64,000 nt of DNA from a virus. The position numbers were made by a program, and so were the translations under genes. The notes under the pieces were generated by a model. The model made no database searches and was not told where the DNA came from. It was given only the letters and a program-made list of their open reading frames with translations. The DNA is taken from positions 116,050 to 180,049 of IMG/VR virus record IMGVR_UViG_3300022602_000031; one strand, written 5' to 3'. Shown here piece by piece: positions 22,598-24,098 of the stretch. Position 1 is the first letter of the stretch. The number at the start of each line of letters is the position of its first letter.

Positions 22598-22657
22598 GTA
22601 TTTGTATAAATAATAGTATCATCGTATAAATATATACAAATCCCAGGAGAATTCCAG

Positions 22658-23605
22658 ATGCAAAAAACAAACAAAATCAAGTGGCTTATTGCTCACGAAC
22701 CCGTACATCTTTTCTTACGTACAGCTGAAGCTTTTGCCGCTGATGTCAAAGAAAAAACCAATGGTTTAATCGACATTGAAATTTACACAGCTACAGAATA
22801 TGCTGAAAAATTCAACAATGGCGTAAAAGAAAACCCACTAGCACATATGGAACGTGGCAACTTAGAAATGAGCCAGTTGCATATTAGTCAACTATGGAAA
22901 TACAATGTTCCAGCATTTATGGCGTTAGAAATGCCATTCTTGTTTGAGAGTCATGATCACGCTACTCGTGTTCTTGAAGGTAATATTGGCCAAGATATGT
23001 TGCTAAGTCTTAAAGAAAAATCACCAGCACGTGGGCTAGCATTTACATACTCTGGTGGTTATCGTGTAATGGTTTCAAACGAAGAAGTTAACGAATTAGC
23101 AGACTTCCGTAATATGAGATTCTACACAGGTACAAACCCAATTGGTATGGACACTATTGAAGCTATCGGTGGTCAGCCAGATCCACACGCGATTGACCAC
23201 TTTTGGCAAACTGTACACAAAGAAGGTGACCGTCATGACGCAGTTGATACAACATTGCCACGTATTTTAGCTACTGTTGATAAAACTAATAAGCGTTATA
23301 TCACCGATACTAAACATAGCCTATTCCTAACAAGTATTATTGTTAGTGAAACTTGGTGGGCAAGTTTGGATACAGAAACAAAAGAAACATTGGCCAAAGC
23401 CGCAGTTGACGCCGCACGTTTAGAGCGCAAGTGGTCAATTGATGATTCTGAAGTAGTTGCTCGTGATGCTGTTAAACACGGTCTGAGCTACAAAGAATTG
23501 GACAAATCCGAAATGGACAAGTTCCGTGCTTTAACTGAGCCATTGTACGCCAAATATGATTCCGTGTTTATGCCTGGTTTGATTGGTGGCATTATCCGCA
23601 GTTAA
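22658..23605 (+). CDS. DctP-like (TRAP) solute-binding protein, copy 1, no signal peptide
   Basis: LEMPFLFESHDHA and LAFTYSGGYR motifs; TATAAATA upstream at 22605 and 22625. Confidence 0.82.
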   Translation: MQKTNKIKWLIAHEPVHLFLRTAEAFAADVKEKTNGLIDIEIYTATEYAEKFNNGVKENPLAHMERGNLEMSQLHISQLWKYNVPAFMALEMPFLFESHDHATRVLEGNIGQDMLLSLKEKSPARGLAFTYSGGYRVMVSNEEVNELADFRNMRFYTGTNPIGMDTIEAIGGQPDPHAIDHFWQTVHKEGDRHDAVDTTLPRILATVDKTNKRYITDTKHSLFLTSIIVSETWWASLDTETKETLAKAAVDAARLERKWSIDDSEVVARDAVKHGLSYKELDKSEMDKFRALTEPLYAKYDSVFMPGLIGGIIRS

Positions 23606-23645
23606 TCATTGCAATCCTGTTAGTTTTAAAGTATAATCAGATTCT

Positions 23646-24098
23646 ATGAAAGATAATTTTTTAGAATCTGATTCTCTATCCAATAAACGAATCTTAATTT
23701 TTGGTATAACCAGAATTCAAAGTCAACCTACTGTTCGGCAGATACAAGAAATTGATACAGCCTATGGTGAGTTGCGTCAATATGTTAACGAAGTTTATTG
23801 CGTATCTTTTGATGATTTTTTATTATTTGATCAACTTACACCAAGGTTTTCAAAAACAATTAAATTTATTCAGAATGGTCAATTGTTACCCAGAGTTCAA
23901 GAACTATTAAATAAACGTGGGCACAAAGATTTTTTAAAACAGTATTGGCAGTTTGTATGTTGCATTAATAACGGACAGATTGAGTTTTATCAAGAACATC
24001 CGTTTGATAAATTGGATTTAGATCCCGATACAGTTAGAAAAATATATAAACAAGTATCACCAGCAGTGGCATTAGAAAAATTAAAGGAAATAAAATGA
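23646..24098 (+). CDS. Degenerate redoxin (Prx5-like) fold protein, copy 1
   Basis: KRILIFG...VNEVYCVSFDD pattern; no PxxxTxxC motif; TTGCAA-17-TATAAT upstream. Confidence 0.5.
   Translation: MKDNFLESDSLSNKRILIFGITRIQSQPTVRQIQEIDTAYGELRQYVNEVYCVSFDDFLLFDQLTPRFSKTIKFIQNGQLLPRVQELLNKRGHKDFLKQYWQFVCCINNGQIEFYQEHPFDKLDLDPDTVRKIYKQVSPAVALEKLKEIK

What the first reader, a model, noticed from the sequence alone, without database searches (positions are those of the whole stretch)
22605..24098. Triplicated module of signal-less DctP-like binding protein plus Cys-less peroxiredoxin-fold protein (also 38092-39722 and 40005-41517)
Seen: three dispersed copies of the same gene pair, each placed after a tRNA or ncRNA and behind a TAAATA late box. 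Two copies share the UTR ACAAATCCCAGGAG, and all three have GGAG followed within 3-5 nt by TCC, a mini hairpin over the SD. The DctP paralogs have no signal peptide, no DctQ/DctM partner is in the window, and the carboxylate-binding Arg of the K-I-R strand appears replaced (NMRFY, GLTVI, GAKFA). The partner proteins keep a Prx5-like scaffold but lack PxxxTxxC. Inference: both folds are repurposed as a cytoplasmic or virion ligand-sensing or sequestering complex, for example sponging a defence signal or metabolite.
Basis: partly seen in the sequence, partly recalled or inferred. Interest (0 to 1): 0.75.

Follow-up and report, generated by a model that had tools for sequence, protein, structure and literature searches.

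The report
Leaderless DctP plus dead peroxiredoxin pairs
A giant T4-like lake phage carries three old, co-evolving gene pairs, each joining a transporter-type binding protein that cannot be exported to a peroxiredoxin-fold protein that cannot be an enzyme; this looks like an undescribed phage-specific ligand-binding module working inside the infected cell, with an unknown ligand.

Summary
The window has three co-directional pairs:
- D1 22658-23605 / R1 23646-24098
- D2 38132-39097 / R2 39078-39722
- D3 40038-40994 / R3 40975-41517

D proteins are full-length DctP-family TRAP binding proteins. They have no room for a signal peptide, and the carboxylate-clamping Arg is replaced by Y, I and A. 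No DctQ/DctM is found in this contig or in two near-complete relatives. R proteins have a confident Prx5 fold but lack both the peroxidatic Cys and the catalytic Arg.

New here:
- About 200 IMG/VR phage contigs carry leaderless DctP genes.
- The Arg-less ones form one clade (19/19 with an R partner), nested among Arg-keeping, partner-less ones (45/45).
- R1/R2/R3 match D1/D2/D3 locus for locus.
- A 20-nt dual-coding overlap joins D and R.
- The dead-Prx5 family fills roughly 100 sequence clusters, and distant members still sit beside DctP genes.
- Signal-bearing (exported) relatives occur mainly in Bdellovibrionota and Elusimicrobia MAGs.

Complex prediction gave only weak support.

Best reading: a cytoplasmic D-R heteromer that binds small molecules. 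The sponge idea is untested. The scan had noted this module on this genome, and leaderless DctP genes on other genomes. The Shine-Dalgarno mini-hairpin is not significant.

The parts
20628..21800 (+). PP-loop (SGGADS) ATP-pyrophosphatase-like protein, 390 aa. Recurrent neighbour of phage leaderless DctP genes; a possible pathway partner, not proven part of the module.
   Evidence: Homologues lie within 4 kb of D genes in 17 loci. The sister family aligns weakly with LarE, AsnB, TilS and QueC at the PP-loop. The Atlas shows virus-only clusters.
22512..22597 (+). tRNA-Tyr(GTA) directly upstream of pair 1
   Evidence: The same tRNA-Tyr then D1-type order is seen in L004.
22605..22632 (+). Two TATAAATA boxes (22605-22612, 22625-22632) matching the T4 late-promoter consensus
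   Evidence: The motif is not enriched in the window overall, so promoter function is inferred only.
22636..22649 (+). Shared 5' leader ACAAATCCCAGGAG, including the Shine-Dalgarno sequence of D1
   Evidence: Exact repeat with 38112-38125.
22658..23605 (+). D1: leaderless DctP-family binding protein, 315 aa, with Tyr at the Arg-clamp position
   Evidence: PF03480 E 5.4e-36. The D1-type clade has Tyr in 7 of 7 members.
23646..24098 (+). R1: Prx5-fold protein without Cys or Arg, 150 aa
   Evidence: PHROG 2281 E 2e-9. Family HMM and R1 clade.
37991..38084 (+). tRNA-Ser(GCT) directly upstream of pair 2
   Evidence: A tRNA-Ser lies upstream of the D-R pair, which tRNA-Thr follows, in L013, L016 and L019.
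38092..38125 (+). GATAAATA box (38092-38099) and shared leader ACAAATCCCAGGAG (38112-38125)
38132..39097 (+). D2: leaderless DctP-family protein, 321 aa, with Ile at the Arg-clamp position
   Evidence: PF03480 E 4.7e-36.
39078..39722 (+). R2: Prx5-fold protein without the catalytic Cys or Arg, 214 aa, with an insertion of about 60 aa. It overlaps D2 by 20 nt.
   Evidence: PF08534 E 1.8e-6. R2 clade. Overlap read from the coordinates.
39725..40005 (+). Structured non-coding RNA between pairs 2 and 3, closed by a long terminal helix
   Evidence: MFE -94.2 kcal/mol, z -3.89, 0 of 200 shuffles as stable. No Rfam match.
40005..40012 (+). GATAAATA box before D3
40038..40994 (+). D3: leaderless DctP-family protein, 318 aa, with Ala at the Arg-clamp position
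   Evidence: PF03480 E 2e-39. Alignment to 4p47 and 4xfe. AF2 pLDDT 90, TM 0.80-0.84 to solved TRAP binding proteins.
40975..41517 (+). R3: Prx5-fold protein, 180 aa. The Cys position is deleted and the catalytic Arg is Gln. It overlaps D3 by 20 nt.
   Evidence: PF08534 E 1.2e-6. 1nm3 E 3e-9. AF2 pLDDT 93, Foldseek 1nm3 E 5e-11.
41525..41598 (+). tRNA-Thr(TGT) directly downstream of pair 3
   Evidence: The same R then tRNA-Thr junction is seen in L013, L016, L019 and L026.

Best explanation
Each pair encodes a cytoplasmic two-protein ligand-binding unit.

D is a complete Venus-flytrap TRAP-type binding protein that is made without a leader, so it stays inside the infected cell. Its pocket has been rebuilt. 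The Arg that clamps carboxylates in nearly all DctP proteins is gone, and a different residue is fixed there in each paralogue type: Tyr, Ile/Val/Thr, or Ala. The three D types therefore most likely hold three different, probably non-carboxylate, small molecules.

R is a Prx5-fold pseudo-enzyme. Its translation is coupled to the end of D through a conserved 20-nt dual-coding overlap, with no Shine-Dalgarno sequence of its own. It is inferred to be made in equal amounts and to dock on D, either as an adaptor or as a lid.

The unit would capture a metabolite or signal during the late phase. It would then either withhold that molecule from the host or hand it to a phage enzyme.

Shown: fold, loss of export, loss of the catalytic and clamping residues, absence of membrane partners, single origin of the paired clade, and co-diversification. 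Inferred: heteromer formation, ligand binding, late expression, and the purpose of binding.
For: Identity and fold:
- D = PF03480 at E about 1e-36 to 1e-39.
- AF2 model of D3 has pLDDT 90 and TM 0.80-0.84 to solved TRAP binding proteins. It is closer to ligand-bound SiaP (0.78) than to apo SiaP (0.72).
- R3 model has pLDDT 93 and its best match is the hybrid Prx5 1nm3.

Not a transporter part:
- No leader is possible.
- All 64 distinct phage D proteins start 3-6 residues before strand 1.
- Most relatives in Bdellovibrionota and Elusimicrobia MAGs show classical signal peptides in the same reading, which serves as a positive control.
- No DctM or DctQ in 5 phage records, two of them 94-100% complete.

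Not a peroxidase:
- Cys and Arg are absent in all 19 R homologues from the loci, and in about 100 family representatives. True Prx5 sequences (PGAFTPTCS and RSWRY) appear only below E about 1e-20.

Selected as a pair:
- The Arg-less D proteins form one clade (SH-aLRT 99). 19 of 19 have R downstream, against 0 of 45 in the Arg-keeping remainder.
- R1/R2/R3 clades (support 98-99) match the D1/D2/D3 clades locus for locus.
- Distant R members P0162, P0250 and P0201 also sit next to DctP genes.
- The 20-nt D/R overlap recurs in D2/R2, D3/R3, L013, L014, L022 and distant L085.

Binding:
- Complex prediction on D3 + R3 gave 'weak support': median ipSAE 0.49 (runs 0.33, 0.62, 0.49), best of 3 controls 0.00.
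- The tool's mark was reached by 58 of 80 solved complexes and 2 of 110 mismatched pairs. At 0.60 or under it was reached by only 7 of those 80, and by both mismatches.
- Runs agree in at least 55% of contacts, and the partner's pLDDT is at least 85.
Against: - No ligand, no expression data and no protein-level evidence exist.
- The complex score is in the weak band, which the tool says is more often wrong than right unless the prior was high.
- No D-R fusion protein was found. This is weak evidence only.
- Loss of the Arg clamp could mean loss of ligand binding altogether, with D acting as a scaffold.
- A complete 374-kb relative has only one pair, so three specificities are not essential to the lineage.
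- Late-promoter boxes are not statistically enriched.
Confidence: 0.45

Rival explanations
1. Substrate-presenting or substrate-channelling subunits of a phage biosynthetic or modification pathway built around virus-specific PP-loop adenylating enzymes. D (with R) holds the substrate or product for the PP-loop protein encoded 860 nt upstream of pair 1.
For: - PP-loop proteins (SGGxDS) of two related families are the commonest neighbours of phage leaderless DctP genes: family c1 in 45 of 82 loci and family c7 in 17 of 82.
- The window's own c7 member is at 20628-21800.
- L085 reads PP-loop, D, R, tRNA-Ser, then two Trp-halogenase-like genes.
- In G008 the PP-loop gene abuts the D-R pair.
- PP-loop enzymes typically adenylate carboxylates or carbonyls, and the ancestral Arg-keeping D would bind carboxylates (established knowledge of both families).
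Against: - The PP-loop link is mainly with the unpaired, Arg-keeping D.
- In the complete genome G006 three to four PP-loop genes cluster with the unpaired D, while the D-R pair lies about 165 kb away. G007 shows the same pattern.
- Only 7 of 26 paired loci have a c7 gene within 4 kb.
- The paired clade lost the carboxylate clamp.
Confidence: 0.2
2. Anti-defence or anti-signalling sponge. Abundant D-R units soak up host immune second messengers or another alarm molecule, with one ligand per paralogue type.
For: - A cytoplasmic, high-affinity 1:1 binding fold is present.
- Copy number varies from 1 to 3 pairs per genome: G006 has one, L004 two, this contig three.
- The pocket residue differs between types.
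- The family is found only in phage contigs in the collections searched.
- Strong GGAG Shine-Dalgarno sequences and late-type promoter boxes are present.
Against: - No similarity to any known sponge was sought or seen.
- The types are old and stable: the residue at the former Arg position is nearly fixed within each type. That looks like settled sub-functionalisation rather than an arms race.
- No defence or counter-defence genes were identified nearby.
Confidence: 0.13
3. The D fold has become an enzyme, as in the binding-protein-fold enzymes MqnA/MqnD, THI5 or cyclohexadienyl dehydratase, with R as a structural subunit.
For: - Many invariant polar residues are specific to the phage and Bdellovibrionota subfamily: AHEP, FTYSGG[FY]R, E[ST]T.PR, T.H.
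- The family occurs in biosynthetic-looking neighbourhoods with PP-loop and halogenase-like genes.
Against: - The same motifs occur in the exported cellular relatives. Those look like ordinary periplasmic binding proteins sitting next to ABC-transporter genes.
- No catalytic motif was recognised.
Confidence: 0.1
4. Virion-associated lectin or decoration. D binds a host surface sugar, with R as the adaptor to the particle.
For: - Late-type promoter boxes are present.
- DctP relatives bind sialic and other sugar acids (PDB titles).
- No leader is needed for virion proteins.
Against: - The pairs lie inside the tRNA arrays, not in a structural module.
- The proteins have no extra domain for attachment.
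- The acid-sugar clamp Arg is lost.
Confidence: 0.07
5. An ordinary auxiliary transport gene that still serves a host TRAP transporter, together with an antioxidant peroxiredoxin (the database annotation).
For: Automatic names in the source databases: 'TRAP-type C4-dicarboxylate transport system substrate-binding protein' and 'peroxiredoxin'.
Against: - No export signal is present or possible.
- The Arg clamp is lost.
- No DctQM is encoded.
- Both the peroxidatic Cys and the catalytic Arg are absent.
Confidence: 0.02

Closest known systems
DctP-type TRAP transporter substrate-binding proteins (PF03480; e.g. SiaP, DctP, YiaO; solved 4p47, 4xfe, 7bbr)
   Same: Full-length domain match and the same two-lobe fold (TM 0.80-0.84). 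Retained family motifs include PF[LI]F.[DS]H.HA and the Arg equivalent to SiaP R127.
   Different: There is no signal peptide and no DctQ/DctM. The selectivity-filter Arg (SiaP R147) is replaced by Tyr, Ile or Ala. The DGQENP-type loop is replaced by E-T-T-x-P-R. Each is obligately followed by a Prx5-fold gene.
Exported 'AHEP...FTYSGG' DctP subfamily of Bdellovibrionota, Bacteriovoracaceae and Elusimicrobia MAGs
   Same: These are the nearest cellular relatives (25-43% identity) and share the subfamily-specific motifs. They too are not next to DctQM genes.
   Different: Most carry classical signal peptides and mostly keep the Arg. None has an R partner. Their neighbours are ABC-transporter parts, an NMT1-like binding protein, an AMP-binding enzyme and an MBOAT.
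Prx5-type peroxiredoxins (PF08534; H. influenzae hybrid Prx5 1nm3, human PRDX5)
   Same: Same fold (Foldseek E 5e-11, TM 0.66). Sequence match E 3e-9. R3 keeps the Pro and Thr of PxxxTxxC.
   Different: The peroxidatic Cys is deleted or replaced. The catalytic Arg of W-R-Y is Gln, Asn or Ser throughout the family. R is therefore a pseudo-enzyme.
Phage small-molecule sponges (Tad1, Tad2, Acb2)
   Same: Only the proposed logic is shared: an abundant cytoplasmic phage protein that binds a small molecule stoichiometrically (my own knowledge, not tested here).
   Different: The folds are unrelated, this is a two-gene unit, and no ligand is known. No test of relatedness was run.
Unpaired leaderless phage DctP in PP-loop / DUF2061 cassettes (same scan, other genomes)
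   Same: Same phage-specific leaderless DctP radiation. The paired clade is nested within it.
   Different: The unpaired genes keep the Arg, have no R partner and lie outside tRNA arrays. They sit next to PP-loop and DUF2061 genes.

Membership tests
DctP-type TRAP substrate-binding protein | PF03480 domain over the curated cut-off, full length | tested here: met
   124.8, 125.0 and 136.1 bits against a cut-off of 23.4, covering profile positions 12-284 of 286.
DctP-type TRAP substrate-binding protein | Two-lobe TRAP binding-protein fold | tested here: met
   AF2 model of D3 has pLDDT 90. Foldseek gives TM 0.80-0.84 to 4pak, 4pdd and 7bbr, with E down to 1e-24.
DctP-type TRAP substrate-binding protein | N-terminal signal peptide (export to the periplasm) | tested here: not met
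   The ORFs start 6 residues before strand 1. Upstream in-frame stops leave no room for a leader. Most relatives in Bdellovibrionota and Elusimicrobia MAGs read in the same way do show leaders. SignalP itself was not available.
DctP-type TRAP substrate-binding protein | Conserved carboxylate-clamping Arg (SiaP R147, strand G-L-K-I-R) | tested here: not met
   Tyr in D1, Ile in D2, Ala in D3. D3 was aligned to 4p47, 4xfe and YiaO; D1 and D2 follow from the paralogue alignment.
DctP-type TRAP substrate-binding protein | Cognate DctQ/DctM membrane components | tested here: not met
   No PF06808 or PF04290 match in the 180-kb contig or in 4 related phage records, including ones 100% and 94% complete. 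The own genome is only about 50% complete.
Prx5-type peroxiredoxin | Thioredoxin/Prx5 fold | tested here: met
   R3 AF2 model has pLDDT 93. Best PDB matches are 1nm3, 3uma and 2wfc, at E 5e-11 to 1e-8.
Prx5-type peroxiredoxin | Pfam Redoxin (PF08534) over the cut-off | tested here: inconclusive
   R2 scores 28.3 and R3 28.8 bits against a cut-off of 26.6. R1 has no Pfam hit and is seen only by PHROG 2281 at E 2e-9.
Prx5-type peroxiredoxin | Peroxidatic Cys in PxxxTxxC | tested here: not met
   The position is a gap in R3 against 1nm3. No Cys stands at that column in 19 locus homologues or in about 100 family representatives.
Prx5-type peroxiredoxin | Catalytic Arg (W-R-Y strand) | tested here: not met
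   W-Q-Y in R3, W-Q-F in R1 and W-S-Y in R2. True Prx5 representatives in the same alignment read RSWRY.
Phage anti-defence sponge | Binds a host immune signalling molecule and neutralises a defence system | not testable with these tools
   This needs binding assays and defence-strain plating. No computation here bears on it.

The most novel reading that the evidence does not exclude
The D-R pairs are a new class of phage heterodimeric cytoplasmic sponges or receptors. Each is built from a re-tooled transporter binding protein locked to a pseudo-peroxiredoxin, and each paralogue type sequesters a different host signal or metabolite to disarm or rewire the infected cell.
Probability: 0.15. Interest if true: 0.85.

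Novelty: new variant of a known kind. Interest (0 to 1): 0.62.

Why it matters
Binding proteins of TRAP transporters are textbook periplasmic proteins. Here a whole phage-borne radiation of them (about 200 IMG/VR contigs) is made without a leader. One clade within it has traded the family's defining Arg for an obligate pseudo-peroxiredoxin partner.

That gives a clean, datable case of two classical folds being recruited together for a new intracellular job in giant aquatic phages. It also corrects the automatic 'transporter' and 'antioxidant' auxiliary-gene labels that these genes carry in metagenome surveys.

If the unit turns out to sequester a host signal or metabolite, it would add a new protein architecture to phage counter-defence or metabolic take-over. 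The three paralogue types would then offer ready-made natural specificity variants for study. I found no paper describing the module.

Tried and rejected
- **Named phages:** megablast of pair 1 against 50,697 phage records found nothing. tblastn of D3 gave only 5 weak hits at about 24% identity, to ordinary cellular DctP genes such as Salmonella yiaO.
- **Literature:** four searches and four papers read found nothing. Many 'dctp' hits were the nucleotide dCTP.
- **Shine-Dalgarno mini-hairpin:** not different from shuffles.
- **Late-promoter enrichment:** TATAAATA occurs 6 times against 8.5 expected, and GATAAATA 6 against 4.8.
- **Fusion search (Rosetta stone):** no D-R fusion among proteins of 558-2000 aa. 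The long R-profile hits are true-Prx repeats or unrelated repeats.
- **PP-loop proteins:** profiles against the PDB gave only marginal PP-loop hits for the sister family, and none for the window's own family. The substrate cannot be named.
- **Other Redoxin hits** in relatives G006 and G007 are not members of the R family.
- **Rfam** found no family for the 280-nt RNA between pairs 2 and 3.
- **Careful IQ-TREE run** did not finish in the time limit. The trees cited are quick LG+G4 trees with SH-aLRT support only.
- **Deep R relationships:** the branching order of R1, R2, R3 and true Prx5 is unresolved.
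Full report
**What is there.** The window is the last 64 kb of a 180-kb IMG/VR contig that CheckV rates about 50% complete. It carries 23 tRNA genes.

Three co-directional gene pairs lie in and beside the tRNA arrays:
- D1 22658-23605 / R1 23646-24098
- D2 38132-39097 / R2 39078-39722
- D3 40038-40994 / R3 40975-41517

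The D proteins match Pfam DctP (PF03480) at E 5e-36 to 2e-39 over almost the whole profile, and are 44-50% identical to each other. R2 and R3 pass Pfam Redoxin narrowly. R1 is recognised only by PHROG 2281 and by a profile of the family. The R proteins are 25-27% identical to each other.

**The D proteins are complete binding proteins that cannot be exported.** D1 and D3 begin at the first start codon after an in-frame stop, six residues before the first beta-strand (I-[RK]-W-[LV]-[IL]-x-H-E-P). D2 can be extended only by 14 hydrophilic residues.

The AF2 model of D3 has pLDDT 90. It superposes on solved TRAP binding proteins at TM 0.80-0.84, and fits ligand-bound SiaP (0.78) better than apo SiaP (0.72).

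In alignments to 4p47 and 4xfe, and to Salmonella YiaO, the Arg of the G-L-K-I-R-T strand is Ala in D3. That Arg is the selectivity-filter residue, SiaP R147. The paralogue alignment puts Tyr (D1) and Ile (D2) in the same column. The second Arg, equivalent to SiaP R127 in the FTYSGG[FY]R motif, is kept. That equivalence rests on my recollection of the SiaP sequence together with the YiaO alignment.

No DctM or DctQ is found in this contig or in four related phage records, two of them 94-100% complete.

**The R proteins are Prx5-fold pseudo-enzymes.** R3 aligns to the H. influenzae hybrid Prx5 (1nm3) at E 3e-9. The Pro and Thr of PxxxTxxC are present, the Cys position is a gap, and the catalytic Arg of W-R-Y is Gln. 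The AF2 model has pLDDT 93, and its best structural matches are 1nm3 and other Prx5-type enzymes.

A profile of 20 R sequences was searched against 1.84 billion cluster representatives. It found 790 proteins at E 1e-3 or better. The top 100 or so all lack both the Cys and the Arg (W-[QNS]-[YF]). Genuine Prx5 sequences (PGAFTPTCS and RSWRY) appear only below about E 1e-20.

**The pairing is old, exclusive and co-evolving.** A scan of IMG/VR found 206 stretches encoding D relatives. All 64 distinct proteins from the 79 loci kept are leaderless.

On a tree rooted with YiaO, the Arg-less proteins form one clade (SH-aLRT 99). All 19 of its members have an R gene immediately downstream. The other 45 keep the Arg (K-[ILV]-R) and none has an R gene.

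Inside the paired clade there are three types, each with a nearly fixed residue at the former Arg position:
- D1-type: Tyr
- D2-type: Ile, Val or Thr
- D3-type: Ala (Thr in one member)

The R tree has three matching clades (support 98-99), with identical locus membership.

Three distant R family members picked from the profile search also lie next to DctP genes.

D2/R2 and D3/R3 overlap by exactly 20 nt. The same bases encode the conserved D C-terminus (D-G-I-I-x-S) and the R N-terminus (M-E-...). The same 20-nt overlap is seen in L013, L014, L022 and the distant L085, and most R genes have no Shine-Dalgarno sequence of their own. This argues for translational coupling and equal dosage.

Copy number varies. 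A complete 374-kb relative has one pair, L004 has two, and this contig has three.

**Does D bind R?** The one complex job (D3 + R3, each with its own alignment) returned 'weak support'.
- Median ipSAE was 0.49 (runs 0.33, 0.62, 0.49). The best of three controls scored 0.00.
- The tool's mark was reached by 58 of 80 solved complexes and 2 of 110 mismatched pairs.
- At 0.60 or under, it was reached by only 7 of those 80 and by both mismatches.
- Runs agree in at least 55% of contacts, and the partner's pLDDT is at least 85.

Taken with the genetic evidence I consider a heteromer likely, but not shown. No fused D-R protein was found, which is weak evidence.

**Context.**
- *tRNA arrays.* Fifteen of 18 paired loci lie inside tRNA arrays, with recurring junctions. 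tRNA-Tyr stands upstream of D1-type pairs. tRNA-Ser stands upstream of, and tRNA-Thr immediately follows, D3- or D2-type pairs. Loci of the unpaired clade almost never contain tRNAs. I read this as inherited synteny in a plastic region. A functional tie to tRNAs cannot be excluded.
- *PP-loop proteins.* The commonest neighbours of the unpaired, Arg-keeping D genes are two related virus-specific PP-loop (SGGxDS) families and a DUF2061 membrane protein. One PP-loop gene (20628-21800) lies 860 nt upstream of pair 1. In complete or large relatives, however, the PP-loop genes cluster with the unpaired D, far from the D-R pair.
- *Cellular relatives.* The nearest cellular relatives of the subfamily are in Bdellovibrionota, Bacteriovoracaceae and Elusimicrobia MAGs. 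Most have clear signal peptides and mostly keep the Arg. None has an R partner or an adjacent DctQM. They sit beside ABC-transporter, AMP-binding and MBOAT genes. Several leaderless 'MAG' copies with PP-loop neighbours are probably binned phage contigs.

**Signals around the genes.** The leader ACAAATCCCAGGAG is identical before D1 and D2. TATAAATA stands twice before D1, and GATAAATA before D2 and D3. This fits T4-type late promoters, but the octamers are not enriched in the window. The proposed mini-hairpin over the Shine-Dalgarno sequence is no more stable than in shuffled sequence.

**Interpretation.** Transport and peroxide reduction are excluded as far as sequence can exclude them. The most economical reading is a cytoplasmic D-R heteromer that binds a small molecule, with three specificities in this phage. 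I put this at about 0.45.

What the binding is for is open:
- handing a substrate to a phage pathway such as the PP-loop enzymes, about 0.2
- a binding-protein-fold enzyme, about 0.1
- a virion lectin, about 0.07

**Novelty.** I found no description of this module in the paper library, and no cultured phage carrying it in the phage collection.

The scan had already noted this D-R module on this genome, and leaderless DctP genes, some with PP-loop neighbours, on other genomes. New here are:
- the single origin of the paired, Arg-less clade
- the one-to-one co-diversification with a large dead-Prx5 family
- the conserved dual-coding overlap
- the exported cellular relatives
- the structural confirmation of both folds

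Noticed in passing
window 39725-40005 (+): A structured non-coding RNA of about 280 nt lies between pair 2 and pair 3, closed by a long terminal helix. MFE is -94.2 kcal/mol, z -3.89, and 0 of 200 shuffles fold as well. It has no Rfam match even at E 1. It sits where a tRNA sits in front of the other two pairs.
   Followed up: partly
window 20628-21800 (+), and loci L027-L082: Two related virus-only PP-loop (SGGxDS) protein families of about 390-430 aa recur next to leaderless, Arg-keeping phage DctP genes and a DUF2061 membrane protein. G006 and G007 each hold three to four paralogues in a row. The substrate is unknown.
   Followed up: partly
L088-L152 (GTDB MAG contigs): An exported 'AHEP...FTYSGG' DctP subfamily is concentrated in predatory Bdellovibrionota and in Elusimicrobia. 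It is not adjacent to DctQM; 2 of 5 genomes checked have no DctM at all. Its conserved neighbours are ABC-transporter parts, an NMT1-like binding protein, an AMP-binding enzyme and an MBOAT.
   Followed up: partly
L085:3022-5510 (Logan contig ERR14789960_97572): Two tandem Trp-halogenase-family (PF04820) genes lie directly downstream of a PP-loop, D, R, tRNA-Ser block in a distant relative.
   Followed up: no
L029:2986-3924, and BFVD hits: Some of these phages also encode TctC/Bug-type (TTT family) binding-protein homologues next to the DctP-like gene. BFVD lists several such proteins from 'uncultured Caudovirales phage'. Whether they are leaderless too was not checked.
   Followed up: no
L014:1983-2937, L022:1934-2936, G007:138919-139870: A D-family gene is split into two adjacent ORFs (about 160 + 165 aa) in several relatives, flanked by PP-loop genes. 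It is either a decaying copy or a genuinely split form.
   Followed up: no
L070:3312-3658: ARAGORN calls a permuted tmRNA (tag ANDNFASEDFALAA) close to an unpaired D gene in one viral contig.
   Followed up: no
window 24095-24259 (+): A 54-aa ORF overlaps the R1 stop codon by 4 nt (ATGA) and precedes the tRNA array. It has no counterpart after R1-type genes in L005, where a tRNA follows directly.
   Followed up: partly
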